64,000 nt of DNA from an uncultured Collinsella sp. (GCA_905205145.1 CAJLCM010000001.1:2403-66402), one strand, 5' to 3'; shown: positions 27,820-45,409, counted from the stretch's first letter. Translations and numbers: made by a program. Notes: generated by a model not told the origin, from the sequence alone.

Positions 27820-27852
27820 GTTGTGGCGGCCGGATTTGTGTCTGCGCGAAAA

Positions 27853-28034
27853 CGAAGGTGAATACTTTTCCGCGAAGTGAACGACCTATTTTGGACCCCC
27901 GAAGCATCCACACTTTTTGACGCCAAAACTGCAGGAAAAACTTGGCGAAACCGCAGGAAACGGCGTCTGAAAAGTGTCGATGCTTCGGGGGCTCGTTTTT
28001 GCTCGTTCACTTCGCGGAAAAGTATTCACCTTCG
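27853..28034. repeat. 182-bp near-perfect palindrome (hairpin element).
   Basis: Outer arms cgaaggtgaatacttttccgcgaagtgaacga at 27853-27884 and 28003-28034 are exact reverse complements. Inner arms cccccgaagcatccacactttt / aaaagtgtcgatgcttcggggg are also exact. Confidence 0.6.
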
Positions 28035-28056
28035 ATTCGCAAGGGCACTGTGTGAG

Positions 28057-30945: not shown

Positions 30946-31022
30946 TGATATGGGCAGTAAAGCCACCGCAAATATGCCTGTGAACTGCGCCCTTTGTGGT
31001 TGTTTGGGCCTATGCGTTAATG

Positions 31023-31352
31023 CTATAACGCCGCAGCGATTGCTTCAGTCACAAACTTATTGAGTGACTCACCCTTCTTTGCCGCTGCCAGCGCTGCTTG
31101 CTTGTGGAGCTCAGAGCCCGTTCTTACGTTGAACGAGCCCTTAAAAGCTCGCTCGGGTTCCTTGCCCTTCTCGGCGCAAAACTCAAGGTAATCGTCGACG
31201 GCGTCGTGGAAGCATTGCTCCACTTCTTCAACCGTGGAGCCTTCAAATACGATTGCGTCCCTAATGCCGGTGACCATACCTGTGAGCACATGCTGTTCGG
31301 CATCGAACTCGACTGGGGCGAAATAACCCTTGTATGCCAAAACGTTACTCAT
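31023..31352 (-). CDS. hicB: HicB-family antitoxin.
   Basis: UPF0150/HicB N-terminal fold text (..YKGYFAPVEFDAEQHVLTGMV..) and a C-terminal RHH-like tail. Its start overlaps the hicA stop. Confidence 0.7.
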   Translation of the reverse strand: MSNVLAYKGYFAPVEFDAEQHVLTGMVTGIRDAIVFEGSTVEEVEQCFHDAVDDYLEFCAEKGKEPERAFKGSFNVRTGSELHKQAALAAAKKGESLNKFVTEAIAAAL

Positions 31353-31608
31353 GACTACCTCCGACATCTTGCAGAAATCGAACGATGTTTCGAATGGTCC
31401 CCGCTGTCAATTCGTCAGATGGATGTGGCGCGTGCATTACGAACATCCTGCCATCCGATGGCCTGTAGAAGCGAACGCGCGATCCGGATGTCTTGCCTTT
31501 GTTGTCCATTTCAAAGCCATATGAAGCCATGACTTTTAAAAAATCGGTATACCGATACGTCGAAGGGCAGCTAAGCAGCTGGGCGATGAGTTTATCGGTC
31601 CGAGTCAT
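31345..31608 (-). CDS. hicA: HicA-family mRNA interferase toxin.
   Basis: 87 aa. The C-terminal ..HPSDELTAGTIRNIVRFL resembles the HicA consensus. It lies upstream of and overlaps hicB. Confidence 0.75.
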   Translation of the reverse strand: MTRTDKLIAQLLSCPSTYRYTDFLKVMASYGFEMDNKGKTSGSRVRFYRPSDGRMFVMHAPHPSDELTAGTIRNIVRFLQDVGGSHE

Positions 31609-31622
31609 CCCGCCTCACATTC

Positions 31623-31643
31623 TGCAACTATATCTTAGTTGCA
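31623..31643. promoter_or_regulatory. Candidate HicB operator: the perfect palindrome TGCAACTA-tatct-TAGTTGCA, 15-35 nt upstream of the hicA start.
   Basis: An 8-bp inverted repeat in the position expected for antitoxin autoregulation. Confidence 0.4.
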
Positions 31644-31830
31644 ATTTAAGTCCGATGCAAGCACCCCCTACTATAGAACATGCGTACGTATAGAACAAGT
31701 GTTCGAACCAATACAAAGGCGCCTGTGAACTGCGCCCCTTTGCGATGGTTTGGGCTGAATGTTGCGCAACAAGGGCTGCATTTTTGGGTTTACCTTCATG
31801 GTAGAAGGAATGAATCGAAAGGAGCCCGCC

Positions 31831-33489
31831 ATGTTTTGTCGCTCGTGTGGCACGCCGCTTGTCGACGACGCCCTCTTTTGCCCCGTCTGCGGCGCGCCCG
31901 TAGCACCCGACCAGGTCGCGGCCACGCAGCAACCCCAGCCTGCCGCCGCGCCCGCTCCTCAGCAATACATGCCTGCGCAGCAGCCCGTGCGGCGCAAACG
32001 TTCCAAGAAGCCCCTCATCGCTCTCGCCGCGGTGCTTGCCGTGGCGGCCGGCATCGGCGGTGGCGCGCTGTTCTACTTCACCCAGATTGCGACCACCCCA
32101 ATCGACGAGAAAACCTTTCCAGACAGCGGCATGCGTGCGCTTGTCTCGACCAAGTACGATACTAACGGTGATGGCCGCATCTCACGCGACGAGGCCAAGG
32201 CGGTGACATCGGTCGAGCTGGACGGCATCGCGTCGACGCAGGGCCTGGGCAAGACATTCCCCAATATCGTTACAGTGGAGTCCGGCGACGACAAGCTCGT
32301 CAACCTGGACCTTTCGGGCTGCGGCGACCTTAAAACCGTCGAGCTTAACTCGGCGAGTAATGTCACCGCCGTTAACCTGGACGGCTGCGACAACATCGAG
32401 AAGCTCGACCTTTCAAATGCCGGGGAGCTCAAAAGCGTCGATCTTTCGGGCAAAAAGAAGCTCGCCACGTTGGAACTGCCGCAGGATACGAAGGTTAGCG
32501 GCATTAAGGACACACAGCTCGACGAGCTGTGGCTGCCGGTGTCCTACGAAGGTACCGACAAGTCGGACCAGTACGGCGATATCTACGAGATCGAGCGTGA
32601 CGAGAACGGTTACGTCACGGGCTTCACGTCTGCCGTCAAGCAAGGTGGCGGCGTAAGTTACAGCGTCGAGCACGATGAGTCGCATCGCATTTCGGAGATT
32701 GAGGAAGATCTGGCGGGCGGTTATGCGAACGTCAACACGTTTACGTACGACGCCGACGGTAACGTCACGCGCATCGATTGCGATGCCGACATTAGCGATT
32801 CGTCGAGCACCACGACGTTTACCTACGACGCGGACGGAAACCTGATCAACAAGACGACCCATGCGGGTTACGGCGAGAGCGCGAGCACGTATATTTATCA
32901 GAACGGCAACATGGTGACCAACACCGATACCAGCCCGGCCAATCCTCGGACGGTCGTGTATTCGTACGGATACGACAAGGATCGCGTGACGTCCTTTACG
33001 CTGGATTGCCAGGGCGACACGGTGGGAACTACGTGGACGATTACCGCGGGCTACGAGTATGACAAGGACGGCAACATTTCGCGTATCTCGCCTGTGGCAT
33101 ATGACTCGCACGGCAACGACTACGGTTCGCTGAGCTCGTATGCCGCGGTGGATTATTCGTACAGCGACGGAAAGCTCGACAGGATCGATTCCGAGCGCGG
33201 CGGCTATGCGGAGTTCTATTACGACGAGCACGGCAACCTGACGTCGGTCGACGAGTATGCCGGCCGCGGTTCGGATGCCGAGTTTGAGTTTGAGCACGAG
33301 GTTGAGTACCAGCGCTACTTCTGCAGCAAGCACGAGAAGAATAAGCCGGAGGAGTGGATTCGTCTGGATGCAGAGTACGACGTCGACCAGGGTAGCTGGA
33401 GCAATGACTCCGATTATGGTCGTGAGTGCTTTGCAACCATGTACAAGCTCGATCCGCTGGCGGGCAGGCTGAACCCGTTCATCAAGTAA
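31831..33489 (+). CDS. Membrane-anchored surface protein with an N-terminal zinc-ribbon, one TM helix, a leucine-rich-repeat region and YD (RHS-like) repeats.
   Basis: Zinc-ribbon CRSCGTPLVDDALFCPVCG, TM helix LIALAAVLAVAAGIGGGALFYF, LRR-like LDLSGCGDLKTVELNSASNVTAVNLDGCDNIEKLDLSNAGELKSVDLSG, and repeated xYDADGN/YxYDKDG units. ATG 31831 follows AAAGGAG. Confidence 0.7.
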   Translation: MFCRSCGTPLVDDALFCPVCGAPVAPDQVAATQQPQPAAAPAPQQYMPAQQPVRRKRSKKPLIALAAVLAVAAGIGGGALFYFTQIATTPIDEKTFPDSGMRALVSTKYDTNGDGRISRDEAKAVTSVELDGIASTQGLGKTFPNIVTVESGDDKLVNLDLSGCGDLKTVELNSASNVTAVNLDGCDNIEKLDLSNAGELKSVDLSGKKKLATLELPQDTKVSGIKDTQLDELWLPVSYEGTDKSDQYGDIYEIERDENGYVTGFTSAVKQGGGVSYSVEHDESHRISEIEEDLAGGYANVNTFTYDADGNVTRIDCDADISDSSSTTTFTYDADGNLINKTTHAGYGESASTYIYQNGNMVTNTDTSPANPRTVVYSYGYDKDRVTSFTLDCQGDTVGTTWTITAGYEYDKDGNISRISPVAYDSHGNDYGSLSSYAAVDYSYSDGKLDRIDSERGGYAEFYYDEHGNLTSVDEYAGRGSDAEFEFEHEVEYQRYFCSKHEKNKPEEWIRLDAEYDVDQGSWSNDSDYGRECFATMYKLDPLAGRLNPFIK

Positions 33490-33500
33490 CAGCTCGCCGG

Positions 33501-33542
33501 AAAACCACCACAAAGGGGACAGGCACCTTTGTGGTGGTTTTG
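33501..33542. terminator. Bidirectional terminator hairpin (aaaaccaccacaaagg-ggacaggcac-cctttgtggtggtttt) between convergent genes.
   Basis: A 14-bp perfect stem flanked by A-run and T-run. Confidence 0.6.
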
Positions 33543-33553
33543 CTTGCGGTGCG

Positions 33554-36500
33554 TTAGGCCAGCAGGTCGATGACGGTAAAGCTGGCGTTGCTCTTGGCGA
33601 TGACGTCGCGTCCGCCAAAGACGCAGGTGGGCGACGCGGCTGCGATGCGCGTCACATCGGCGCCGAGCGAGCGCAGCTCACCGGGTGTGGCCGCGAGCAT
33701 CTGGGCGCGACGCTCCTCGCGCGCGTGCGGATCGAGCCCAGCCAGGTAGGTCGTATTGCGGCGCTTGGTGAGCGCGTACGGCTTCACGGGCGCGTCCATG
33801 CCGCTCACGCAGCTCACGATAAAGCCCTCGAAGGCGGCCTCGTCGGGCTCAAAGCTGCCGAGCCATGCGCCCGCGCGCTCCACGCGCTCAATCGAAGGAT
33901 CGACCGCCGGGTCGCGGTAGGTGTAGAACGCCGTCTGACGCTCGCCAGCAGCGCGGAATCCGCAGCCGTACGCACCGCCCTTCACGCGGATCTCGTTCCA
34001 CAGGTAGTCGTAGGAGAGCGCGTTGGCGGCAACCGCCCAGGCGCCCGTCACGTCGATGCCCAGGCGACGCGGGTCGCACGCGCGCGCCGCAAAGCAGATG
34101 TCGCTGGGGATGACGAAAGCCTCGTGACGGTCGCGCGGCTCCGGCACCACGAGCGTGCCGCTGCTAGCGCCGTCGCCGGCGCCAAGCCCCAAGTCGCCCG
34201 CGGCATCCCAGTACGCGTCAAAGTCCTCGTCGCTGCCGGTAAAGCTCGCCATGCAGCCATCGGCCACAAAGATGCGGTCTGCCAGCGCGGCAAGCTTGGC
34301 GCGCAGGTCGTCCAGTCGCTCGTCAAAGTGCTCGAGCAGATCGCGCAGGAACAGGTAGAAGTCCACGCCCGAAAGCTGCTCGCGCACCACGGCCGAAGGC
34401 GCACTGTAGCTCATCGCGCGACCGAGCGCCGCCGAGTGGCCGTTGTTGATAAAGCCCTGCTCAAGCCCAATGCGAATCTGCGTAAGCACGTCGCGCACGC
34501 GGTCGGCGTCGGCGTCTGCCAAAAGCGTGCTCGACCATACCTCGCGCGGTAGACTCGCCAGCGCGTCGATCTTCTCGGACAGGGCGCCGGCGCTCACCAG
34601 CAGGTAGGGGCGCACGCCGTCCACTTCGGGCTGGGTCATGACCTCGGTCGTAAAGCTCAAAAAGCCCAGCTTGCCAGCGAGCAAGTTGTCGAGTTCCTCG
34701 GCCGAGTGCTCGCGCGTGGGTAGCTGCTTAAGCAGGCGGCAGAGCAGTGTCACATAGGGCAGGTCCTCAAACGTGACGCAGCTCAGGTCGAAATACTGCA
34801 TGGCGTAGGCCAGGCGGTTGGTGGGGATGCCGTGGCGCAGGCAGGGGATGGGCGCGGTCGTGTCCACGACCAGCGGCGGCTCGGGGCGCGCCTCGCCAAT
34901 GTCGGACACGCGCAGGCGCGGCAGCGTGGCCTTGGCCTCGGGCGTGTCTTCCGCCTCCTGCGCGGCACGCAGCGCGGCCGTGCGCTCGACCACGTCGGCC
35001 AGCTCGGCATCGGTCATGGCATCGCGCTTGGCTGCTAGCTCGGCGGCCTCGGCACCCTCCGAACCCTCGGCGGCGTCCACCGGCACCAGCTCGACCAGCG
35101 CCATGTGATCGTTCTGCAGCACCAGCTCGCGCAGCAGGTCCTCAAAGTAGCTGCCGTCCAGCTCGCCGCGCAGCTCCTCGTACACCGGGCCTTACTTGAG
35201 CGCCAGCGTCGCAGCGTCGTCATCGTAGAGCCAGGTGCTCAGCGCATCGCACGCAATGGCCACGCCGTCGGCGATGCCATAGTCGCGCTGGCGCAGGTCG
35301 TACTCGTTGCTGCTGATGATGGCCTCCAGGCGCTCGCGCGGAACGCCGTGCTCGCACAGGTCGCGGCAAGCGTCCTGGAATACGCGACGCAGCTCGCGCG
35401 CCACGCCGGGCTGCGCATTTTGCAGCATGATGAGCTCGTAGGGCTGCAGGCACTCGGCCGCGGTGTAGCTCACCACGTTGCCGCCCAGGCCGGCGGCCAG
35501 AATGGCCTTCTTAACTGGTGCTTCGTTGGAGCCCAGCAGCGCCTCGAACAGGATATCTGCTGCGATCGTGCGCTTGCGGTCGAGTGCACTGCCCAGCACA
35601 AGACCCAGGCCCACCAGGGCGTTCTCGGGCGTGGTGGCCATCTCGACGCGCTTATACTCGCAGGTCACAGGCGCCTGCACGTCCAGCGGATTGGGTGCCA
35701 GCGCGGACGGGTCCTCGCCGGCGGCAACAGCGGCGTCCATGCGGCGGCTCGCGGCACTCGACTGCGACAGATAACGCTCGTCCAAAAAGGCTAACGCGCG
35801 GTCCACGTCCAGGTCGCCGTAGAGCGTGATGTAGGAGTTGGAAGGATTGTAGTGGCGTGCGTGCGTATCCAGGAACTGCTCGTAGGTGAGCGCGGGAATC
35901 GCGCGCGGGTCGCCACCGCTCTCGTGCGCATAGGCGGTGTCGGGATAGAGCGCGGCGTTAACAGCATCGTCCAGCACGCTCATGGGGTCGGACAGCGCGC
36001 CCTTCATTTCGTTGAACACCACACCGTTATAGCGCAGCGTGCCCTCGCGCAGGCTCGCGGAGCTGCCGTCGACCTCGCCCTCGGCGCCCTCCGGCAGGTC
36101 CAGTTCGTAGTGCCAGCCCTCCTGCTCAAAAATAGTCGGCTTGGTGTAGATGGCCGGGTTGAACACCGCGTCCAGGTACACGTCCATCAGGTTGTACAGG
36201 TCCTGCTCGTTGGTGGTGGCAACGGGGTAGATGGTTTTGTCGGGGTAGGTCATGGCGTTGAGGAACGTCTGCATGGAGCTCTTGATCAGATCGACGAATG
36301 GCTCCTTGACGGGGAACTTGGCCGATCCGCACAGCACCGAGTGCTCAAGAATATGGAACACGCCGGTGGAATCGGCCGGCGGCGTCTTAAAGCCAATGGC
36401 AAAGGCCTTGTTTTCGTCGTCGCATGCCAGGTACAGCAGGCGAGCGCCCGAGGCGGTGTGGCGTAGCACGTAGGCGTCCGAGTCGAGCTCGGGCACGGTC

Positions 36501-36592
36501 TCGCGACGCTCGACGGCAAAGCCGTGGCAGGTGGTGTCGGGCACCAGCAGCGCGGCGGCAGCGGCGCGCGGGTCGGTTGAGGTGGTGGGCAT
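33554..36592 (-). pseudogene. PreP-like M16C zinc metalloprotease (insulinase family) interrupted by a single in-frame TAA stop at 35192-35194.
   Basis: The N-part (36592..35192) carries the inverted zinc motif HILEH. The C-part (35191..33554) continues the M16C-associated domains in the same frame (..ATLALK*GPVYEELRG..). Together they make ~1012 codons, which is typical for PreP. The RBS is AAAGGAG. Confidence 0.65.
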
Positions 36593-37162
36593 ATGCAGTC
36601 TCCTTTGACGCCCCAGCGGGGGCGAATCGAGTCGAATCCTCGAGAGTATACCCATATGGGGCCGCGGCTCTGCGGCGAACTGAAGACGATGCTGGCGGAT
36701 TGGGCATAGGTCCCGCGTGCCCGCCGCACGAGCGTGGAAAATTGGACACTCGCCAAACGAGAGTGGATATTTGGACGGAATTTGCCGCAAAAGCCCCAAA
36801 AACCGTCCAAATATCCACTCTCGATATCCGACCGTCCGAAAATCCTCGCTCGTCCATCACTCGCGTATCTCTCGTCTCTCATTCGTCTCTAATATGAGAG
36901 ATGACAGGAAGATGAGAGAAAAATATGAGAGATAACTGAGCAGCAAAGAGACAGGCAATCATGGTATTGTCTCAATACCGATTGTTCTACCAGCAAAAAT
37001 ATGTATAAATGAAGCAAATGGTAGACATTCCATCTCTATCTATCTCTTATCTCTAAGCCGAGAGATAGAGAGATAGATGAGAGATAATTACGAGAGATAA
37101 CTGAGAGACGAGGGAAATCTATCCGCGGCATTCTTCGCAGGACCGAGCGAAAGGACGTGAAG

Positions 37163-38629
37163 ATGAACGAAAACGAGCTGACCGGTCTGCTTGAGTCTTT
37201 AAGGCGTATGGGCTCGGATGATCTTAGCGTCGAAGTGAAGGAGAGCGCCACGACGCTTTCCCGCGACGTGTGGGAAACGGTGAGCGCATTCGCGAACACT
37301 GCCGGCGGAATCATCGTGCTCGGAGTGAGTGAGCGCGCAGGTTTTGTCCCGGTTGAGAACTTCGAGACCGAGAAAGTGCTCAACCAGTTTGTGGCAGGCA
37401 TGGGCGATGCCGGCGGCCGAGGAAAGCTGGCCAATCCGCCCAAATACACGATCGAGCGATTGGAGCTCCAGGGCGCCATTGTTCTCGTCATCACGATTGA
37501 GGAGCTCGACCCGTCGAGCAAGCCCTGCTATGTCATAGAGCGGGGCGCCCAGGGCGGCAGCTACAAACGCATCGACGACAAAGACGTGCCGCTTTCATCG
37601 ACCGAGGTTCTGTCCTTGTCGTCGTATGAACGAACGAGCCCCAGTGATCGTGATGCAGTGCCGGGTGCGGGTGTGGGAGACCTCGACGAGGCCCTGATTG
37701 ACCGCACGATAGAGCGTGCTTTCTCGCTGACGCCCCGAGCTATGCGCGGTGCGATGGACAAGAAAACAAAGCTGGAGCGCCTGAATTTCCTCGACTCCCG
37801 GGGTAATGTGACTAAGGCCGGGCTCCTGGCTGCGGGCATCTATCCTCAGCAGTTCTATCCCAAGCTCTTCATTGATGTGGCTGTCCACGTGGGAGCTCAA
37901 AAGGGAGCTGCGGGGTCGCTGAGGTTCATGGACCGCACAATCTGTGAGGGAACGTTGGGCGAGATGATCTCGGATGCCGTCGCAGCCGTCGCCAAGAATT
38001 TGCGGCGAACCTCGACCGTCCAAGGCGTCTCGCGTGTCGACTCGCTTGAGATTCCCGAGGAGGTTCTGCGCGAGGCAATCGCTAACGCCGTAATCCATCG
38101 AGAATACGGGGATCGGTTCTGTGGACAATCGATTGCCGTCGACGTCTTTGACGATCGTGTCGAGGTGACGAATCCTGGCGGCCTTTACGGGGGAAAGACT
38201 CGCGAGAACTTGTTTGACGGCAGCTCCCGATGCCGTAACGCGACGCTTGTGAAGCTCATGTCGATTGTCCCGCTGCCGGATGGCGCAGGTTCGCCGGCTG
38301 AGGGCAATGGCTCGGGCATCCCGATGATGATCGATGCCATGCGCGCGCATGGTCTGGCCGAGCCCCTGTTCTGCCCGGGATTCGATCGGTTCAAGGTCGT
38401 ACTTTACCGTTCAAAGATCGAGCCGGTCGATCATGGCGGGGGCTTAATTGTGACGGCACTCAAACACTACGGCGAGCTGGGGACGCGCGAGCTGGCAGAG
38501 CACACAGGGCTCACAATTTCCCAGGTTAGGTCGCGCGTCAACGCGCTCATTGCTCAAGGCGAGCTTGAGCCCACGGCGCCGGCGACGAGCCGCAACCGCA
38601 AGTATCGACTGTCGGAGCGCGTGGGATAG
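37163..38629 (+). CDS. AlbA_2 (Schlafen-like DNA-binding) plus HATPase_c_4 domain protein, a putative ATP-dependent DNA-binding/regulatory protein.
   Basis: N-terminal ..ESLRRMGSDDLSVEVKESATTLSRDVWETVSAFANTAGGIIVLGV.. matches AlbA_2. Central ..LREAIANAVIHREYGD.. matches HATPase_c_4. A C-terminal HTH-like tail is present. GC is lower than in flanking core genes. Confidence 0.7.
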   Translation: MNENELTGLLESLRRMGSDDLSVEVKESATTLSRDVWETVSAFANTAGGIIVLGVSERAGFVPVENFETEKVLNQFVAGMGDAGGRGKLANPPKYTIERLELQGAIVLVITIEELDPSSKPCYVIERGAQGGSYKRIDDKDVPLSSTEVLSLSSYERTSPSDRDAVPGAGVGDLDEALIDRTIERAFSLTPRAMRGAMDKKTKLERLNFLDSRGNVTKAGLLAAGIYPQQFYPKLFIDVAVHVGAQKGAAGSLRFMDRTICEGTLGEMISDAVAAVAKNLRRTSTVQGVSRVDSLEIPEEVLREAIANAVIHREYGDRFCGQSIAVDVFDDRVEVTNPGGLYGGKTRENLFDGSSRCRNATLVKLMSIVPLPDGAGSPAEGNGSGIPMMIDAMRAHGLAEPLFCPGFDRFKVVLYRSKIEPVDHGGGLIVTALKHYGELGTRELAEHTGLTISQVRSRVNALIAQGELEPTAPATSRNRKYRLSERVG

Positions 38630-38729
38630 ATGCGTTAGTGGACGAGGCGACCCAATAATCGACTCTCGATTGGCGTCCATTAAGGTAAAGCGGTTGTTGC
38701 CCAGTCGACGGTGATGCTAAAGACTCGGC

Positions 38730-39221
38730 TTACGCCGGCATGGCCCCGAACCCGTCCATCAAGAACAGCCTAAGAACCAGCTTGATGACATATCCCGGTT
38801 TGACTTCAGCCGTGCCAAAGACGCTGCGCTCGGCGAGCTCGCTGCAGTATGCATAGATGTCGCGGATAAGGTCCGCGCCCGAAAGCGTAAACATGTAGCC
38901 TGCGTCCGAAAGCGCATTGGGCGCGGCAGGCAACTTGGCCATGTGACAGAACGTTTGCAGGTCGGGCGCCATAACGTTCTGGTAGTCGAGGGGGCCGTTG
39001 GCATCCTGCGCGGCAAGCTCCAATTGGCGCACAAAATCCAGCGCCGCCGCTAACACAAAGCTCGGCGTAGGCGCATTGACGTCCTGAGTGGTCGCCACAA
39101 GCCTGCCCGCCGCCTGCGTGACAAGCCAAGCGACCTCGCGCTGGCAACGCACGGCCTTGCGCGTAACCGGCTTGATGGACGAAGAAGAAACGCTCCCCTT
39201 AGGCGGATTCGAAACAGCCAC
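38730..39221 (-). CDS. Hypothetical protein (163 aa) with no recognisable domain.
   Basis: An ORF with coding-like composition. It is divergent from the HNH gene, with its start codon only ~11 nt from the annotated HNH start. Confidence 0.35.
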   Translation of the reverse strand: MAVSNPPKGSVSSSSIKPVTRKAVRCQREVAWLVTQAAGRLVATTQDVNAPTPSFVLAAALDFVRQLELAAQDANGPLDYQNVMAPDLQTFCHMAKLPAAPNALSDAGYMFTLSGADLIRDIYAYCSELAERSVFGTAEVKPGYVIKLVLRLFLMDGFGAMPA

Positions 39222-39232
39222 AAGAACCTCCC

Positions 39233-40105
39233 ATGAACGACCCGGCCCAACAAGCCCGGATGAAACACGTGCTACATCAGTATACAGGGAAGTGGGGTAG
39301 CGGGGTACAAGCGCGCCAGCGGCAAACCGAGAGCATCAACGATGTGCCTCCGCTCTATTTGGACGATGGTACGTGGGTCATTAAGTACTCGGTTCAAGCG
39401 CCGGGTACCGTTGGTTTTCGAGACCAGAATTACAACCGTAAAATGCTCAACTGCATGGAATGTGGCGTTCCAGTCGGAGTCATATTTGCAACCGAGGTGG
39501 GCTACAAGGTGCTCGGCCTTGCGTTTGTTGAACGGTTCGAGTCCGAAAACGGATGGTTTGTTCTGCACGGTCCTGTTCATAAAGGCGGACCGGACCCTCG
39601 TTTTGCGCCCGACATGAGTTATCTGAAGCACATGCCCGTCGATATTGAGTTTGTCGGACAGGGTACGACCGACGACGAAAAGGCCCGCTATGCGTTAAGG
39701 CGCGAGCGATTGGGGCAGCAATGGTTCCGCAAGCAGCTCGTTGCCGCCTATGATGGCCGTTGCGCGGTGTCGGACTGCGGCGTCAGCGAAGCTCTGGAGG
39801 CTGCACATATCGAGAATTACTCGGGACCCAAATCGCAGGTTGCCAGCAACGGCATTCTGCTTCGGCGCGACTTACATGCTTTATTCGATGCTCATCTGAT
39901 TTCGTTTGAGCCTGTTTGCGGCGAATATCGGCTGTGCGGATCGTACCTGCTGGATAAGACCGACTACGCTTCCTTTGCGGGTGCGACGCTAAGGCAGCCG
40001 AATGAGCGTCAGTGGCGACCCAATACGGTGTTTCTTGAGGCCCATCGCATCGAGTTCGATCGCTCGGAAAAGAAGCGTGAAAAGGCGGGGCTTCTGCCGT
40101 ATTAG
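39233..40105 (+). CDS. HNH-family endonuclease with an unassigned ~150-aa N-terminal domain (putative modification-dependent / Type IV-like restriction nuclease).
   Basis: C-terminal zinc-HNH: ..DGRCAVSDCGVSEALEAAHIENYSGPKSQVASNGILLRRDLHALFDAHLISFEPVCGEYRLCG... The start may instead be ATG ~39260 (MKHVLHQ). Confidence 0.65.
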   Translation: MNDPAQQARMKHVLHQYTGKWGSGVQARQRQTESINDVPPLYLDDGTWVIKYSVQAPGTVGFRDQNYNRKMLNCMECGVPVGVIFATEVGYKVLGLAFVERFESENGWFVLHGPVHKGGPDPRFAPDMSYLKHMPVDIEFVGQGTTDDEKARYALRRERLGQQWFRKQLVAAYDGRCAVSDCGVSEALEAAHIENYSGPKSQVASNGILLRRDLHALFDAHLISFEPVCGEYRLCGSYLLDKTDYASFAGATLRQPNERQWRPNTVFLEAHRIEFDRSEKKREKAGLLPY

Positions 40106-40251
40106 CGTATTTGGCTTTGGCGGTCTTTGACGATCGTGTTGTTTGATCGGATCGCGTGGCGATGCAATCTCGCGCGCACTTGCTGGTGCATGCTCTTCCT
40201 GGTTTGAATAACGGGAAGGGAGCGAGCGTGAGCTGGCGAGGCGATATTGCG

Positions 40252-40512
40252 ATGGGGAAGTACGGAAAACTGCCGTGCGCCCTTATAGACAACAATATGT
40301 TTCCGAGCGTAGAGGTTGATTGCGGGTCGTTTGTCGTCACCTGCCCTTGCTGCGGCTCGCAAATACCGTGTCTCGACATTTGGTTCATCGATGCGCGCGA
40401 CAGACTCAGCGACGAAGTGAGGAAACGTATGGGCGTTCATATGCCGGTGTATCCGGAGAAATGCCCTGTTTGTGGCCTCGATATCGTGTACGACGCCGGC
40501 GACGAGGGATAG
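40252..40512 (+). CDS. Small Cys-rich (zinc-ribbon-like) hypothetical protein.
   Basis: Motifs CALIDN...CGSFVVTCPCCGSQIPC...CPVCGLDIV. The start is ambiguous (40156 or 40252). Weak coding evidence. Confidence 0.3.
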   Translation: MGKYGKLPCALIDNNMFPSVEVDCGSFVVTCPCCGSQIPCLDIWFIDARDRLSDEVRKRMGVHMPVYPEKCPVCGLDIVYDAGDEG

Positions 40513-40549
40513 GTGATGCGGAGGAGTTGGCTGTGAGTGTCTTTTGCCT

Positions 40550-41236
40550 CTACAAATAAACCCCCTCACCGAGTTGCCTGTGGAACTCGGCGTGATGGTC
40601 GCGTGCCCAGGTAAAGAGCGCCTGGTCAAAGTCGGTACGCGTGGCCGGGACGCCAAAGACGCCGGCAACTTCGACGCGTATAAACTCCAGTGCCGGCAGC
40701 TTGTTGATGGCAGTGAGGGCAAACGGGGACGAGGGCTCCTCGAACAGATAGCGGCTGCCTTGCAGCGCGTCGCAACTGGTGCACGTGTTGCTGAGCGACG
40801 GGGCTTTGGAGGCTCGCGCGCCTACGGGCTTGTAGCCGCAGCGCTTATGAAGGTAGTCACGGATCTCGCCCGGCACGCAGCCAAGAGCGGGCACGATGGC
40901 GAGTGCGTTGGCGTTGACCGTGTCGATGGCAATGTGTCCGGCTTCGTTGGGCGCGTGCGCGATGACGATGCTCTCGTCGTTATCGGTTCGATAGGGAATG
41001 CCGAAGGCCGCGACCGAGGTCTCTTTGTGACACTTCCAGCACTTGCGCTTGCCCAGTACTAGATATATATACGGCGCTGAGGGGTCGGATCGGTCAACAC
41101 CGGGCAGCCACTCGGCAAAGGGCTCGGGGTTGACGCCGCTAGGTACATACCAGATCTTCTTGGTCCGGTCCCATTTGGCGCCCAGCGCCTTGGCTTCTTC
41201 TTTGTGCGAAAAGGGGACATCGAGCTCGGTACGCAT
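40550..41236 (-). CDS. DUF5710-domain protein with a C-terminal CxxC zinc-finger region (plasmid/phage primase-associated N-terminal domain).
   Basis: MRTELDVPFSHKEEAKALGAKWDRTKKIWYVP.. matches the DUF5710 consensus. RBS AAGGAG plus ATG at ~41236. The upstream frame extension is rejected. Confidence 0.5.
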   Translation of the reverse strand: MRTELDVPFSHKEEAKALGAKWDRTKKIWYVPSGVNPEPFAEWLPGVDRSDPSAPYIYLVLGKRKCWKCHKETSVAAFGIPYRTDNDESIVIAHAPNEAGHIAIDTVNANALAIVPALGCVPGEIRDYLHKRCGYKPVGARASKAPSLSNTCTSCDALQGSRYLFEEPSSPFALTAINKLPALEFIRVEVAGVFGVPATRTDFDQALFTWARDHHAEFHRQLGEGVYL

Positions 41237-41477
41237 GGCGGCTCCTTGGTGCTGCAGGTGCAAGTGGCTCAAGGATACCGCAGGGTGTGGACGCTGTGGC
41301 GTTTTGCTGAGAAGTTGCGGCTCGGATGGGTTCGAGACGTGTTGGTCTCGGCCTCGGTGGCTATTGACGCGGTTTTGTGCATGGGCAGGGTGGTTGCTTG
41401 GGCGGTTGGAGCTGCCAGCTGATTTGGCGACATAAAACAAAACAGCCCAGAGACATAGCCTCTGAGCTGCGAACATT

Positions 41478-41552
41478 TGGTGGGCGTTAGAAGATTTGAA
41501 CTTCTGACCTCTTCCGTGTCAGGGAAGCGCTCTCCCCCTGAGCTAAACGCCC
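41478..41552 (-). tRNA. tRNA-Val (anticodon GAC), CCA-encoded.
   Basis: The reverse complement folds into a cloverleaf: acceptor GGGCGTT/AACGCCC, D-stem GCTC/GAGC, anticodon stem CTTCC/GGAAG with loop CTGACAC, T-stem AGAAG/CTTCT with TTCAAAT loop, discriminator A and CCA. Confidence 0.85.
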
Positions 41553-41841: not shown

Positions 41842-42864
41842 ATGAGCAAAGAGTGTGTCGAGCGGGTCGAAGGCGCAGGGGCTTCGGTGCCGATGACCGA
41901 TATATCGAACATAGATGTGCCCGAGGGCACCGATGAGCTCAGCCGCAACACCCGTCGCGCATGGCGCGACCGCCTGAACAGCGCTTCGACGCGCAAGATG
42001 ATCACGGGCGTCTTGGCTACGCTGGTGGGCGGTTCGTTTTGGGGCTTCTCGGGCACCAGCGCGAGCTTTCTGTTCGATACCTACCACGTCGACACCTTGT
42101 GGCTTATGAGCGTGCGTCAGATTCTCGCCGGTCTACTCTTTATGGCCGTAGTTGTTACGCGCGACCGCGAGCGCCTGATTAAGCTCTGGACCACACCCGC
42201 CGATCGCAAGCAGCTGCTGCTCTTTACCGCCTTTGGTCTGCTGTTCAACCAGTTTTGCTATCTTTCGGCCGTGCGCCTGACGAACGCCGGAACCGCGACG
42301 GTGCTCCAGTGCCTGCAGCTCGTTATCATCATGGGCTACACCTGCGTGATCGATCGCCGCATGCCGCGTACTCGCGAAGTCATCGGCATTGGCCTGGCTC
42401 TGGGTGGAACCTTTTTAATCGCCACCGGCGGCGACCCCACCAGCCTGAATATCTCGCCGCTTGGCCTGGCAGCAGGTCTTATGTGTGCGGTCAGCGCCGC
42501 GTGTATGGCGGTGATTCCCGCCAAGATCCTGCCCGAATACGGCAGCCCCATCGTCACGGGCTCGGCAATGCTCACGGCGGGCGTGATCTCATGTGTCTTC
42601 GTGCAGCCCTGGGCGCATATGCCGGCACTCGACGCTGCCGGCGTCGAGGCGCTCGCGGTGTTCGTGGTTATCGGCTCGTTTTTTGCTTACATGCTCTATA
42701 TGCAGGGCGTTAAGGACATCGGCTCGGTGCGTGCGAGTCTCATCGGAACCGTGGAGCCCGTCTCGGCGACCATCACCAGCGCCGTTATGCTGGGCACGGT
42801 GTTTTTGCCGACCGACCTTATCGGCTTTGTCATGATCATCGTGATGATGTTCCTCACGGTGTAG
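41842..42864 (+). CDS. DMT/EamA-family transporter.
   Basis: Ten predicted TM segments with two EamA-like repeats. ATG 41842 follows GGGGAGTGG. Confidence 0.65.
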   Translation: MSKECVERVEGAGASVPMTDISNIDVPEGTDELSRNTRRAWRDRLNSASTRKMITGVLATLVGGSFWGFSGTSASFLFDTYHVDTLWLMSVRQILAGLLFMAVVVTRDRERLIKLWTTPADRKQLLLFTAFGLLFNQFCYLSAVRLTNAGTATVLQCLQLVIIMGYTCVIDRRMPRTREVIGIGLALGGTFLIATGGDPTSLNISPLGLAAGLMCAVSAACMAVIPAKILPEYGSPIVTGSAMLTAGVISCVFVQPWAHMPALDAAGVEALAVFVVIGSFFAYMLYMQGVKDIGSVRASLIGTVEPVSATITSAVMLGTVFLPTDLIGFVMIIVMMFLTV

Positions 42865-43013
42865 CTGGCGCCGCCACCAAGACAGAAAAGGTGTTGTGCC
42901 GCATTTTCGCCAATTGATGTCCGTGTCTGGAGTTTAGCTGTCGATGCTCAAAATGCCATAAACTAGTAACGTTATGGACTTTTTCATTGCGACTCAATTG
43001 CGAGGATTTCTTT

Positions 43014-45326
43014 ATGGCTGGTAATCACTTTAAGGGTAGCGATAGCGGCCGCCCTGCAGTTCCGCCGCGTCCGAACGGGGCTGGTAAGGCCGGCACGCCG
43101 GGCGGCGCTGGACAGGGCGGTTCCGGTAAGCGCGTGTCCCCGGGCGAGACGGCGATGTTTACCGCTCTGTACGAGCAGTCTCAAAAGGCAAAAAAGACCG
43201 GCCGTGCAAGAGGGAATGTCTTTGCGGGCGGTGCAACCTCCACGTCGCAGCCGAGCGGGGCTCCTTCGGTACCCGCGAACAACGCAGGTGCTGCCAACGC
43301 CGCGAATGGCGCCGGCAACGTTAATGCCGGCAAGGCCGCCAACAATACTCCCTCTGCCGGTGGCGCGGGGCTTACGGGTAACCTTGGCACGATTTACACC
43401 GGCGCCTCCGAGACTGGCACGTTCGCCCGCCTGGATGATAGCGGTGCCGAGTTTGCGGGCTCGGGTTCCAAGGAAGATTATTACGATTTTGGCTTGAACT
43501 ACGGTAGCGACGCTTCGTCGAGTTCGACCTCTGACGGTCTGGTCCGTCATCGCCATCGCAAGGGCGAGCGCAAAAAGCGTCACACCGGCGCCATTATTGC
43601 CGCTGTAGTCGCGGTGCTTCTCGTTGCGCTTGGCGCAAGCGGCTTTATGCTGCTTAACTCGGCAAAGACCGTAAAGAGTGAAGCGAAGGAGGCTGTCGAG
43701 ATCGTCGGTGGCCTTAAGGACAAGGTCACGTCGGGCGATTTTTCGACGCTGCCTGACGACGCGAAGAAGATCGATGAGCTCTGCGACAGCATGAAGGCGG
43801 AGACCTCGAGCTCGCTGTGGACGGCGGCATCGTTTATCCCGGTGTATGGCAGTGACATCAACGCAGCCCGCACCATGATTGATGCCCTGTCCGATGTCTC
43901 GAGCAACGCGCTGGTTCCCATGGCCGATAACCTCTCGCAGGCCACGCCCGGCAAGCTGTTCCAGGACGGCATGATTAACGTGTCCGCGCTACAGGCGGTC
44001 GCCGATTCGCTTTCCAGCAGCTCGAAGGTGTTCAAGAGCGCCAACGAGAAGATCCAGGGCATTGGCGATACTCATATTTCCCAGGTGACCGAGCTGGTCG
44101 ATAAGGCCAAGGACGGTTTTGCCACCCTCAACGGCGCGGTTGACGCGGCGGAGAAGGTCGCCCCCGTCCTTCCCCAGATGCTCGGCGTCAACGGCCAGAC
44201 GCGCAACTACCTTATGTACGCCATGAACAACGTCGAGATTCGTGCTTGCGGCGGCTTTGGCGGTTCGCAGGGCCTGATTTCGGTCACAGACGGCCAGATG
44301 TCGATTGGCGAGTTTGTTCCCCGCATTGGACTCAGCGAGGATGAGGCAGTCGAGAGCGTCGACGAAGAGGATGAGGCGCTGTTCGGCAACCACAGTAACC
44401 TGTACAACTCGGGCAATACCTATTCGCCTGATTGGCCCCGCAACTCGCAGCGTGTCGCCGCGCTGTGGAAGTCCCAGTATGGACAGGACGTTGATGGCGT
44501 CATCGGTATCGACCCGGTGTTCCTGCAGTATCTGCTGGGCCTGGTCGGTAACGTGTCACTGCCCGACGGAACGGTTGTCGACGGCACCAACGCCGCAAAG
44601 GTCCTCATGCACGATGTGTACTGGAACTATCCGGTCGAGGAGTCTGACGGCATCTTTGCATCCGTCGCCAGCGCTGCCTTCGACAAGATCCTTGGCGGTA
44701 TCGGCGATGTCGATGTTACGAAGCTTGTCAGCGCCGTTGAGCGCGGTGCCGAAGAGGGCCGCCTGATCGCTTGGATGAGAAACGATGATGAGCAGAATGC
44801 CATCAAAGAGACGGGCATTGACGCTTCGCTGCCCGATCCGGATGATCCGAGTGCCGATCCCGTTGCCGGCGTTTACTTTAACAACCTGAGCTTCTCCAAG
44901 CTCGACTGGTATCTGAACGCCGACACGCAGATTGGCCAGGGCGTGAAGAACGGCGACGGCACGTGCTCCTATCGCATCACCGTTACCCTGACGAACATCA
45001 TGACGCAGGAGGAGGCCGGCAAGCTGCCCGACTACGTCGCGGCGAGCGCGCCCGATGCCGCGCGCGACGACGAGCGTCTGAATGTCTCACTGTTTGCCCC
45101 GACGGGCGGCAACATCAGTGACCTTACGGTTGAGGGCACCCAGTTTGGTCTTGGCGCCGCTACGTGGCATGGAATCCCCTTCTATTCGGGCACCGTTGAC
45201 CTGCATGCTGGCGAGACGACGACGATCACGTATACGCTGACCACGTCGGCTGAGGCGGGGGACAAGCCGCTTACATTGCGTCAGACTCCTACATGCCAGG
45301 CGGCTCGCGATAGCGCGTCGGCGTAG
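43014..45326 (+). CDS. DUF4012-domain membrane-anchored protein with a long Gly/Ala/Asn-rich disordered N-terminal region.
   Basis: A low-complexity N-terminus is followed by a TM helix (IIAAVVAVLLVALGASGFML) and a ~550-aa extracytoplasmic domain with ..NYLMYAMNNVEIRACGGFGGSQGLISV.. typical of DUF4012. Confidence 0.55.
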   Translation: MAGNHFKGSDSGRPAVPPRPNGAGKAGTPGGAGQGGSGKRVSPGETAMFTALYEQSQKAKKTGRARGNVFAGGATSTSQPSGAPSVPANNAGAANAANGAGNVNAGKAANNTPSAGGAGLTGNLGTIYTGASETGTFARLDDSGAEFAGSGSKEDYYDFGLNYGSDASSSSTSDGLVRHRHRKGERKKRHTGAIIAAVVAVLLVALGASGFMLLNSAKTVKSEAKEAVEIVGGLKDKVTSGDFSTLPDDAKKIDELCDSMKAETSSSLWTAASFIPVYGSDINAARTMIDALSDVSSNALVPMADNLSQATPGKLFQDGMINVSALQAVADSLSSSSKVFKSANEKIQGIGDTHISQVTELVDKAKDGFATLNGAVDAAEKVAPVLPQMLGVNGQTRNYLMYAMNNVEIRACGGFGGSQGLISVTDGQMSIGEFVPRIGLSEDEAVESVDEEDEALFGNHSNLYNSGNTYSPDWPRNSQRVAALWKSQYGQDVDGVIGIDPVFLQYLLGLVGNVSLPDGTVVDGTNAAKVLMHDVYWNYPVEESDGIFASVASAAFDKILGGIGDVDVTKLVSAVERGAEEGRLIAWMRNDDEQNAIKETGIDASLPDPDDPSADPVAGVYFNNLSFSKLDWYLNADTQIGQGVKNGDGTCSYRITVTLTNIMTQEEAGKLPDYVAASAPDAARDDERLNVSLFAPTGGNISDLTVEGTQFGLGAATWHGIPFYSGTVDLHAGETTTITYTLTTSAEAGDKPLTLRQTPTCQAARDSASA

Positions 45327-45409
45327 GGTTTTTCTGGTAGCGCAGATAATCGAGTACCATTTTGGGGCGGACAGGTAATCTGTCCGCCCCTATTTTGTAA
45401 GGAGAGCGC

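What the first reader, a model, noticed from the sequence alone, without database searches (positions are those of the whole stretch)
36824..41477. Low-GC accessory island next to tRNA-Val carrying nuclease/defense-like and mobile-element-like genes, with no integrase
The 4.7 kb upstream of the 3' end of tRNA-Val(GAC) has visibly lower GC than the ~65% core. It is separated from the core by an unusual GA/TC low-complexity palindromic spacer. Every gene in it is accessory-type:
- an AlbA_2 + HATPase_c_4 protein
- a domain-less 163-aa protein divergent from the HNH gene at almost zero spacing
- an HNH endonuclease with an unassigned reader-like N-terminal domain
- a Cys-rich mini-protein
- a DUF5710 protein

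The gene content and the tRNA-flanked position fit a decayed integrative element that retains a candidate modification-dependent restriction module. The unusual pairing of an AlbA_2/HATPase protein with an orphan protein and an HNH nuclease could be an undescribed defense arrangement.
Basis: partly seen in the sequence, partly recalled or inferred. Interest (0 to 1): 0.7.

Follow-up and report, generated by a model that had tools for sequence, protein, structure and literature searches.

The report
Broken methyl-DNA restriction gene in Collinsella
This stretch is a long-resident variable corner of the Collinsella aerofaciens chromosome whose centre is a swap site for restriction genes, and in this genome the resident methylated-DNA-cutting nuclease has lost its front end by a small deletion, so it is ordinary restriction-gene turnover and not a new defence system.

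Summary
The genes, the tRNA-Val and the domain calls are real. GC is only modestly low: 57.3% against 61.2% for the window, not ~65%.

Eighty Collinsella loci were fetched. In every one with enough flank, tRNA-Val lies next to the DUF5710 gene, and none shows an empty site. There is no integrase and no att repeat. Synonymous divergence of the block equals that of its flanks.

Window 39297-40543 is a cassette slot:
- 31 relatives hold the intact SRA-HNH gene plus a Cys mini-gene.
- 7 hold a Sau3AI-type endonuclease plus a C5-methyltransferase.
- Several others carry different deletions.

The "orphan" models as a single-chain tandem ribbon-helix-helix protein and stays in place whichever cassette is present. 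Distant homologs of the HNH protein and of the orphan never co-occur. The proposed three-gene defence arrangement is not supported.

The parts
36728..36853 (.). 126-nt palindromic element in the M16-AlbA_2 intergenic region. It is MITE/REP-like and not part of the restriction slot.
   Evidence: Inverted repeat with 57-nt arms, 77% complementary. RNA fold -73.4 kcal/mol, z = -11. Absent at this site in L001. Present at the same place in most Collinsella loci, with stray single arms elsewhere.
36856..37110 (.). Inferred to be an operator array.
   Evidence: All 6 octamers of the window lie here. There are 5-8 copies within 320 nt upstream of AlbA_2 in 53 of 54 related loci, against 1 copy in the remaining ~1 Mb of those loci.
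37157..38629 (+). AlbA_2 (Schlafen-like) + HATPase_c_4 + C-terminal winged-helix protein. The probable start is the ATG at 37163. It is a framework gene, not tied to the nuclease.
   Evidence: Pfam PF04326 at 1.8e-13, PF13749 at 4.3e-21, HTH_24 weak. dN/dS 0.11. Absent from the variant loci L007-L009 and L064, and 5'-truncated in L039, L069 and L078.
38730..39221 (-). 163-aa 'orphan': a predicted single-chain tandem ribbon-helix-helix DNA-binding protein. It is a framework gene on the left of the slot.
39222..39296 (.). Highly conserved 75-nt stretch just upstream of the orphan gene. Inferred to be its promoter/operator. Its right end is the left edge of the cassette slot.
   Evidence: A long run of identical columns against L001 within this stretch, although the neighbouring coding DNA is 75-83% identical. 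Collinearity with the R-M-carrying loci ends at 39296-39298.
39297..40543 (.). Cassette slot. It holds SRA-HNH + mini-gene here and in most relatives, and a Sau3AI-family endonuclease + C5-methyltransferase in others.
   Evidence: L036 and L042 are collinear with the window up to 39296/39298 and again from 40544, with 3.0 kb of other DNA between. That DNA encodes NF040973 restrict_Sau3AI (477.6 bits, cut-off 300) and TIGR00675 dcm (202.9 bits, cut-off 100.65).
39233..40105 (+). 5'-truncated SRA-HNH type IV restriction gene. It reads as a 290-aa fusion ORF whose first 35 codons come from former intergenic DNA. Probably a pseudogene.
39340..39348 (+). Deletion junction: the single remaining copy of a 9-nt repeat (CGATGTGCC).
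   Evidence: Intact L032 has CGATGTGCC and CGATGTACC 403 nt apart. The window has one copy. The lost DNA is 88 nt upstream of the true ATG plus 105 codons.
40228..40512 (+). 94-aa Cys-rich (CxxC-type, probably zinc-ribbon) mini-protein of unknown role. It travels with the SRA-HNH gene.
   Evidence: Present wherever the HNH gene is present and absent from all R-M-swap loci. 46% identical in the variant locus L007. dN/dS 0.15. No significant family hit.
40550..41236 (-). DUF5710 protein: an N-terminal 44-aa DUF5710 domain plus a Cys-containing C-terminal part. It is the framework gene on the right of the slot.
   Evidence: PF18974 at 4.3e-21. Kept next to tRNA-Val in all loci with flank. dN/dS 0.31. 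No relatives in viral contigs or in the PDB.
41442..41470 (-). Terminator-like hairpin just after the tRNA 3' end.
   Evidence: 13-pair stem followed by TTTTGTTTTAT.
41478..41552 (-). tRNA-Val(GAC).
   Evidence: ARAGORN. Rfam RF00005, 70.1 bits.

Best explanation
The segment is a long-resident, vertically inherited variable region of the Collinsella aerofaciens-complex chromosome. It lies between the M16/PreP peptidase gene and tRNA-Val.

Its centre, 39297-40543, is a restriction-gene slot bounded by two framework genes. On the left is a tandem ribbon-helix-helix protein (the 'orphan'). On the right is a DUF5710 protein.

In most lineages the slot holds a single-protein type IV restriction enzyme of the SRA-HNH architecture, plus a small Cys-rich gene. 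By analogy with TagI and ScoA3IV (inferred), the SRA domain flips out 5-methyl- or 5-hydroxymethylcytosine in incoming DNA. The dimeric HNH domain then cuts nearby. The host is safe because its own DNA lacks the mark.

In other lineages the same slot holds a Sau3AI-type endonuclease with a C5-cytosine methyltransferase. That enzyme makes the very mark an SRA-HNH enzyme would attack, so the two contents exclude each other.

In this genome the SRA-HNH gene has been disabled by a 403-bp deletion between 9-nt repeats. The deletion removes the ribosome site, the start codon and 105 codons, about 40% of the SRA reader. What remains reads as a 290-aa ORF only because an upstream ATG happens to be in frame. 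I take it to be a non-functional remnant.

The AlbA_2/HATPase_c_4/wHTH gene, with its conserved GAGAGATA array, is a separate neighbour. It is probably an autoregulated DNA-binding protein (inferred).
For: **Family and fold**
- The family is 360 aa long. The window copy aligns only from residue 106.
- The AF2 model of the nearest intact relative has pLDDT 85.4.
- Foldseek top hits are TagI, VcaM4I, ScoMcrA and SUVH5 SRA.
- 11 of 67 family members hit Pfam SAD_SRA weakly.
- SAD_SRA model positions 20/26-132 map to P0216 62-168 and P0227 57-170. This places the deletion end near model position 60 of 148.
- The HNH domain matches VcaM4I by sequence at E 7.7e-9.

**Deletion**
- Collinearity breaks and a single repeat copy remains at 39340-39348. 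The true start lies 88 nt inside the lost DNA.

**Population picture in 80 Collinsella loci**
- 31 have an uninterrupted 360-aa gene.
- 4 have the window-type deletion (L043, L051, L069, L026).
- Other lesions occur in L064, L065 and L088.
- 7 have the Sau3AI + dcm pair.
- The exact 290-aa product is on 5 contigs, whereas one intact allele is on at least 1000.

**Residence**
- Synteny is conserved in a relative whose five gene products are 64-92% identical to the window's.
- tRNA-Val is beside DUF5710 in every locus with flank.
- dS of the block equals dS of the flanks, and dN/dS is 0.11-0.31 for all five genes.

**Literature**
- SRA-HNH enzymes cleave 5mC/5hmC DNA and are toxic to Dcm+ cells (PMC6212794, PMC6765204).
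Against: - No enzymology exists for this subfamily. Modification dependence is inferred from fold and architecture.
- The flipped-base pocket residues were not mapped.
- The truncated ORF keeps an open frame and all HNH catalytic residues, so residual activity is not excluded.
- dN/dS among deletion carriers is low (0.12), which could suggest continued constraint. However, the carriers are not each other's nearest relatives in this region, so that divergence probably predates the deletions.
- The lower GC3 and the constant tRNA adjacency remain compatible with an old horizontal origin.
- Only lineages with 97-98% M16 identity, plus two more distant variants, were sampled.
Confidence: 0.75

Rival explanations
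1. One reading: a decayed tRNA-Val-integrated mobile element whose AlbA_2/HATPase protein, orphan protein and HNH nuclease together form an undescribed multi-gene defence system.
For: - Accessory-type gene content, lower GC and GC3, and tRNA adjacency.
- AlbA_2/Schlafen-like domains occur in pAgo-associated defence proteins, giving domain-level PADLOC hits.
- Extra variable genes lie between DUF5710 and the tRNA 3' end in L001 and L007.
Against: - No integrase, and no att repeat.
- No empty site in 80 loci.
- dS of the block equals that of the flanks.
- The orphan persists when HNH is swapped for an R-M pair.
- AlbA_2 is absent from L007-L009, which keep the other four genes.
- Distant HNH homologs and distant orphan homologs are never neighbours.
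- The tight spacing comes from a deletion.
Confidence: 0.07
2. The truncated 290-aa protein is still made and active. It could act as a nuclease with relaxed or altered modification dependence, or as a dominant-negative or regulatory fragment, so the deletion created a new allele and not a pseudogene.
For: - The reading frame stays open from ATG 39233, and all HNH_2 residues are kept.
- The same open fusion ORF is seen in L043, L051 and L069.
- dN/dS among carriers is 0.12.
- In the literature, an SRA domain alone or fused to another nuclease retains function (PMC6765204).
Against: - There is no Shine-Dalgarno sequence before 39233 or before the next in-frame ATG at 39260.
- Family-invariant residues W33, G76, I77 and Y105 are lost.
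- About 40% of the SRA barrel is missing.
- L026 carries the same deletion plus a second one, as expected of a dead gene.
- Carriers are interspersed with intact alleles, so the low dN/dS is uninformative.
- The allele is rare.
Confidence: 0.12
3. The framework genes are functionally coupled to the slot. In this view the tandem RHH protein acts as a controller (C-protein-like) of whichever restriction cassette sits next to it, and DUF5710 and/or the RHH protein help cassette exchange.
For: - The RHH gene and the 75-nt conserved stretch abut the slot in every variant.
- One distant orphan homolog lies a few kb from relaxase genes.
- The slot edges are sharp.
Against: - In the R-M variant the methyltransferase gene reads toward the RHH gene and not divergently from it, so no common promoter layout is kept.
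- Distant RHH homologs have no restriction genes nearby.
- No recombinase and no repeats flank the slot.
- Homologous recombination through conserved flanks is enough to explain the exchange.
Confidence: 0.1

Closest known systems
SRA-HNH type IV modification-dependent restriction endonucleases (TagI, ScoA3IV/Sco5333, TbiR51I, MsiJI)
   Same: - N-terminal SRA fold followed by a linker and a C-terminal HNH (beta-beta-alpha-Me) domain.
- A single gene with no companion methyltransferase.
- Found in Actinobacteria.
- Distant homologs stand alone in the genome.
   Different: - About 75 residues longer than TagI (360 vs 285 aa), with an extra N-terminal helical segment.
- Only 15% identical to TagI in the structural alignment, and below the Pfam SAD_SRA threshold.
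- Accompanied in Collinsella by a Cys-rich mini-gene.
- The copy in this window lacks the first 105 residues.
- No biochemical data exist.
Cassette-like variation of restriction genes at a fixed chromosomal site, such as the E. coli 'immigration control region' (reviewed in PMC12707154)
   Same: Conserved flanking genes with alternative restriction contents in different strains. These include a modification-dependent enzyme versus a methyltransferase-bearing system, and frequent inactivating lesions.
   Different: - A different organism and different flanking genes (tandem RHH and DUF5710).
- A much smaller slot of about 1.2-3 kb.
- It lies next to a tRNA gene.
Single-chain tandem ribbon-helix-helix proteins (F-plasmid TraY, archaeal-virus AvtR, VirC2)
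   Different: - Long inserts lie between the two units.
- No relaxase or conjugation genes are found in this locus.
- DNA binding has not been tested.
tRNA-linked genomic islands / integrative elements
   Same: Located at the 3' side of a tRNA gene, with lower GC3 than housekeeping genes and accessory gene content.
   Different: - No integrase and no att repeat.
- No presence/absence polymorphism.
- Divergence equals that of the flanks.

Membership tests
SRA-HNH type IV restriction endonuclease (TagI/ScoA3IV) | N-terminal SRA (PUA-superfamily) reader domain - in the intact 360-aa relatives | tested here: met
   [not shown]
SRA-HNH type IV restriction endonuclease (TagI/ScoA3IV) | Complete SRA reader domain - in the copy in this window | tested here: not met
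   Residues 1-105 of the family are absent from the whole window. This is about SAD_SRA model positions 1-60 of 148. Invariant W33, G76, I77 and Y105 are lost.
SRA-HNH type IV restriction endonuclease (TagI/ScoA3IV) | C-terminal HNH / beta-beta-alpha-Me nuclease domain with catalytic residues | tested here: met
   PF13391 at 5.5e-11. Profile match to the VcaM4I HNH domain at 7.7e-9. Invariant H192, N206, H215 and D219 (window numbering) are kept.
SRA-HNH type IV restriction endonuclease (TagI/ScoA3IV) | No cognate DNA methyltransferase beside it | tested here: met
   None of the genes adjacent to the HNH gene has a methylase domain. No C5-methyltransferase homolog in the 64-kb window by tblastn. 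The C5-methyltransferase occurs only in loci that lack the HNH gene.
SRA-HNH type IV restriction endonuclease (TagI/ScoA3IV) | Flipped-base pocket (two aromatic walls plus a carboxylate) sized for 5mC/5hmC | tested here: inconclusive
   Invariant Y105, Y122 and D107/D115 are candidates. However, no residue-level structural superposition was available.
SRA-HNH type IV restriction endonuclease (TagI/ScoA3IV) | Cleavage of DNA that depends on 5mC/5hmC | not testable with these tools
   Needs enzyme assays or Dcm+/Dcm- toxicity tests.
tRNA-integrated genomic island / integrative element | Integrase or recombinase gene | tested here: not met
   All five ORFs were scanned. The flanking genes are a peptidase, an EamA transporter, DUF4012 and GlmM.
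tRNA-integrated genomic island / integrative element | Direct repeat of the tRNA 3' end at the far boundary | tested here: not met
   Only the tRNA itself matches, at up to 3 mismatches. No such repeat appears.
tRNA-integrated genomic island / integrative element | Presence/absence polymorphism with an empty site in relatives | tested here: not met
   No empty site among 80 Collinsella loci. The content varies but the block is there. More distant genera were not sampled.
tRNA-integrated genomic island / integrative element | Composition unlike the core genome | tested here: inconclusive
   GC is 57.3% against 61.2%, and GC3 is 0.62-0.75 against 0.81-0.89. But the genes beyond the tRNA are equally low.
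Known multi-gene anti-phage systems (PADLOC-DB v2) | Profile matches to the components of one described system | tested here: not met
   Only domain-level hits were found: a pAgo-associated Schlafen-like region for AlbA_2, and generic HNH. The orphan, mini-protein and DUF5710 have none.
Tandem ribbon-helix-helix DNA-binding proteins (TraY/AvtR type) - the 163-aa orphan | Two strand-helix-helix units in one chain | tested here: met
   [not shown]
Tandem ribbon-helix-helix DNA-binding proteins (TraY/AvtR type) - the 163-aa orphan | Sequence-specific DNA binding through the paired strands | not testable with these tools
   Needs EMSA or footprinting on 39222-39296.
Cassette-variable restriction locus (like the E. 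coli immigration control region) | Conserved flanks with alternative restriction contents in related strains | tested here: met
   Sharp collinearity breaks at 39296/8 and 40544. SRA-HNH + mini-gene alternates with Sau3AI-family REase + dcm. Further variants occur in L007 and L073.

The most novel reading that the evidence does not exclude
The conserved frame around the slot may be a dedicated docking and control platform for interchangeable restriction cassettes in Collinsella. The frame comprises the tandem ribbon-helix-helix protein with its 75-nt invariant upstream stretch, the DUF5710 protein, and the AlbA_2/HATPase/wHTH protein with its GAGAGATA array. In this reading the RHH protein would regulate whichever nuclease is installed, and the truncated SRA-HNH allele could be a tolerated or re-purposed form and not dead DNA.
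Probability: 0.08. Interest if true: 0.6.

Novelty: new member of a known kind. Interest (0 to 1): 0.3.

Why it matters
- It adds a divergent, gut-Actinobacteria branch to the SRA-HNH type IV restriction enzymes. That branch falls below Pfam's SRA threshold and is annotated only as 'HNH endonuclease'.
- It gives a clean natural example of the conflict between a 5mC-reading nuclease and a 5mC-writing R-M system.
- This matters for understanding barriers to gene transfer and phage host range in Collinsella, and for choosing strains and methylation states for genetic manipulation.
- For this window specifically, the nuclease is most likely dead, so the practical interest is low.

Tried and rejected
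- **att site.** Searched for the tRNA 3' end as a direct repeat and for any long direct or inverted repeats bounding the segment. Nothing att-like was found.
- **RNA families.** An Rfam scan of 35-43 kb found only the tRNA.
- **Defence and phage profile libraries.** PADLOC, NCBIfam and PHROGs on all five proteins gave no system-level or informative hits for the orphan, the mini-protein or DUF5710.
- **Viral contigs.** Scans for orphan and DUF5710 relatives found none, so there is no sign of a prophage origin.
- **PDB sequence searches.** Searches with DUF5710 and AlbA_2 found nothing functional.
- **dN/dS test for constraint on the truncated allele.** Rejected as uninformative. Deletion carriers are not monophyletic in the HNH 3' region, which points to a recurrent microhomology deletion or to recombination.
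- **The L007-L009 variant as a transposed cassette.** I first read this variant as the cassette in a different chromosomal context. I rejected that because the same PTS-mannose operon lies between AlbA_2 and M16 in other loci, so it is the same locus.
- **Literature.** Searches for AlbA_2/HATPase_c_4 and DUF5710 gave nothing on function.
- **Promoter scan.** No consensus sigma-70 site was found for the truncated ORF.

Full report
**1. What is there**

The tRNA-Val(GAC) gene lies at 41478-41552 on the minus strand, with its 3' end toward the segment. It is followed by a terminator-like hairpin at 41470-41442.
- AlbA_2 + HATPase_c_4 + weak winged helix, 37157/37163-38629 (+).
- A 163-aa ORF with no domain, 38730-39221 (-).
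- HNH_2, 39233-40105 (+).
- A Cys-rich mini-ORF, 40228-40512 (+).
- DUF5710, 40550-41236 (-).

GC of 36824-41477 is 57.3%, against 61.2% for the window. That is the 1.3rd percentile of equal-sized windows, and a stretch near 12.2 kb is lower. GC3 of the five genes is 0.62-0.75, against 0.81-0.89 in housekeeping neighbours. The EamA and DUF4012 genes beyond the tRNA are just as low at 0.727. So the deviation is real but modest, and the tRNA does not bound it.

No copy of the tRNA 3' end exists elsewhere in the window, and nothing att-like bounds the segment. No integrase is present.

**2. Organism and comparative frame**

Searching one genome per species with the neighbouring M16/PreP peptidase returned 80 loci. 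Nearly all are titled Collinsella, most of them unnamed Collinsella sp. MAGs plus several C. aerofaciens genomes, with 97-98% peptidase identity. A further relative, with five gene products 64-92% identical to the window's, was reached through the HNH protein.

In that relative the order is the same: M16 - AlbA_2 - 163-aa gene - HNH - mini-gene - DUF5710 - (one extra gene) - tRNA-Val - EamA - GlmM. In the 80 loci, every one with enough flank has tRNA-Val next to DUF5710. None has the peptidase abutting the tRNA.

Median pairwise synonymous divergence among 30 lineages is 0.05-0.27 for the five genes and 0.05-0.21 for the flanking peptidase, EamA and DUF4012 genes. dN/dS is 0.11-0.31 for all five. 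The block has therefore been resident, and under selection, for as long as these lineages have been diverging. An ancient acquisition stays possible.

**3. The HNH gene is a truncated SRA-HNH enzyme**

Homologs are 360 aa long and align with the window protein only from its residue 36, which is family residue 106. The first 35 residues of the window ORF resemble nothing in the family.

An AlphaFold model of the nearest intact relative, built from 67 sequences, has pLDDT 85.4.
- Foldseek ranks TagI, VcaM4I, ScoMcrA and plant SRA domains first.
- Eleven of the 67 family members reach Pfam SAD_SRA below threshold.
- The HNH half matches VcaM4I by sequence.

The family therefore has the SRA-HNH architecture of the type IV enzymes TagI and ScoA3IV. 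Those enzymes flip out 5mC/5hmC, cut nearby with a dimeric HNH domain, and are toxic to Dcm+ cells (PMC6212794, PMC6765204).

Homologs at 38% identity in Olsenella and other Coriobacteriia stand alone among housekeeping genes. They have no orphan, AlbA_2 or DUF5710 nearby, as expected of a single-protein enzyme.

**4. The lesion**

Against the close relative L032, the window is collinear up to 39348 and again from 39337, and L032 carries 403 extra nucleotides there. In L032 the two edges are CGATGTGCC and CGATGTACC. The window keeps one copy, at 39340-39348.

The true start codon lies 88 nt inside the lost DNA. So the ribosome site, the start codon and 105 codons are gone. This is a classic deletion between short direct repeats.

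The ATG at 39233 lies in what is intergenic DNA in intact relatives. It overlaps, on the other strand, the GGGAGG ribosome site of the 163-aa gene, and it has no Shine-Dalgarno sequence of its own. The '11-nt divergent spacing' is thus an ORF-calling by-product. In the intact relative L001, 215 nt separate the two genes.

Mapping the weak SAD_SRA hits of two family members onto the alignment puts the break near model position 60 of 148. The lost 105 residues are nowhere else in the window.

**5. A cassette slot**

Among the 80 loci:
- 31 have an uninterrupted 360-aa gene.
- L043, L051, L069 and L026 have the window-type deletion. L026 has a second deletion as well.
- L064 and L065 share another internal deletion.
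- L088 is interrupted.
- L036, L042, L053, L072 and L081 (and also L044 and L067) have neither the HNH gene nor the mini-gene.

In L036 and L042 collinearity with the window stops at 39296-39298 and resumes at 40544, with 3.0 kb of other DNA between. That DNA encodes two proteins:
- A Sau3AI-family type II endonuclease: NCBIfam equivalog at 477.6 bits against a cut-off of 300, and a PDB 4pxg match at E 7e-68.
- A Dcm-type C5-cytosine methyltransferase.

A 5mC-writing system and a 5mC-reading nuclease thus alternate at one site. This is what the known toxicity of SRA-HNH enzymes in Dcm+ cells predicts.

The variant locus L007-L009 has two extra unknown genes inside the slot and lacks AlbA_2. 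L073 has only a divergent mini-gene there.

The exact 290-aa product of the window is on record on 5 contigs, while one intact allele is on at least 1000.

**6. The other genes**

*The 163-aa orphan.*
- It belongs to a very narrow family: 32 representatives among 1.84 billion.
- With a 45-sequence alignment that includes homologs at 33-39% identity, its model reaches pLDDT 88.5. The model shows strand-helix-helix twice.
- I read it as a single-chain tandem RHH DNA-binding protein. Basic residues R21, K22 and R25 sit on the first strand.
- It remains in place whichever cassette fills the slot.
- Its distant homologs lie in unrelated accessory contexts with none of the other window genes.
- The 75 nt upstream of it (39222-39296) contain a long run of positions identical to L001. 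They are probably its promoter/operator (inference).

*The AlbA_2 gene.* It is preceded in 53 of 54 loci by 5-8 GAGAGATA octamers, a motif seen once in the remaining ~1 Mb of those loci. It may be an autoregulatory operator for its winged-helix domain (inference).

*The mini-gene.* It co-varies with the HNH gene and is under purifying selection, but it has no recognisable family.

*DUF5710.* It is constant beside the tRNA, and no function could be assigned.

**7. Is the truncated gene alive?**

dN/dS among the four deletion carriers is 0.12, the same as among intact alleles. However, each carrier's nearest relatives in this region are intact alleles. The identical deletion has therefore either arisen repeatedly at the same microhomology or moved by recombination. 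Either way the divergence mostly predates it, and the test is uninformative.

The missing start signals, the missing invariant residues, the additional decay in L026 and the rarity of the allele all favour a pseudogene. I put residual function at about 0.12.

**8. Verdict**

The interpretation as a decayed integrative element with a novel three-gene defence arrangement is not supported.

What is there is a known kind of thing. It is a divergent SRA-HNH type IV restriction gene, annotated in databases only as 'HNH endonuclease'. It sits in a cassette-variable restriction locus comparable to the E. coli immigration control region (PMC12707154), and in this genome a microhomology deletion has inactivated it.

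The tandem-RHH assignment of the orphan, the GAGAGATA array and the SRA-HNH / Sau3AI-dcm alternation are useful annotations, but none is surprising to a specialist.

Noticed in passing
window 35192-35194 (minus strand), within the M16/PreP peptidase gene 33554-36700: There is an in-frame TAA where all 80 Collinsella relatives encode Tyr (TLALK-Y-GPVYEE). It splits the ~1024-aa peptidase into two ORFs. It is either a nonsense mutation in this genome or a sequencing error.
   Followed up: partly
window 36728-36853: A 126-nt palindrome with 57-nt arms. Its RNA fold is -73.4 kcal/mol, z = -11. It lies at the same site in most Collinsella loci and is absent there in L001. A related arm lies between the mini-gene and DUF5710 in L001, and single arms are scattered in other loci. 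It looks like a small mobile palindromic repeat.
   Followed up: partly
window 36856-37110: The GAGAGATA/TATCTCTC array is conserved, with 5-8 copies upstream of the AlbA_2 gene in 53 of 54 related loci. It is essentially absent elsewhere (1 copy in ~1 Mb). The binding protein is unknown.
   Followed up: partly
window 27849-28040; L001 13907-14097: A ~190-nt segment matches L001 in both orientations at 70-81% identity. It is a second palindromic repeat family. In L001 it lies in the extra DNA next to the tRNA-Val 3' end.
   Followed up: no
window 30951-33501 and 42864-45409: An RHS-repeat/zinc-ribbon protein gene (31759-33489) and the DUF4012 gene (42987-45326) are insertions relative to L001. 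L001 has a P-type ATPase at the first site. The whole neighbourhood is mosaic, not only the flagged segment.
   Followed up: no
L037, L040, L041, L045, L050, L066, L071, L085, L094 (between AlbA_2 and M16); L007-L009: About 5 kb of extra DNA lies between the AlbA_2 gene and the peptidase gene in many lineages, and in L041 this is a GntR-regulated mannose/sorbose PTS operon. The same operon flanks the variant locus L007-L009.
   Followed up: partly
L001 13051-13872; L007 12650-13753: Extra unknown genes of 273 aa and 367 aa (the latter with a weak R3H hit) lie between DUF5710 and the tRNA-Val 3' end in two relatives. This hints that the tRNA-proximal edge also gains and loses DNA.
   Followed up: no
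L039, L069, L078: The AlbA_2 gene is itself 5'-truncated in some lineages, with matches starting only at residue 99/100. In L069 this corresponds to a ~296-nt deletion at window 37150-37447.
   Followed up: no
L098 9899-10169: A second, fragmentary copy of the orphan (RHH) gene lies 1.5 kb from the full copy in a distant relative's locus.
   Followed up: no
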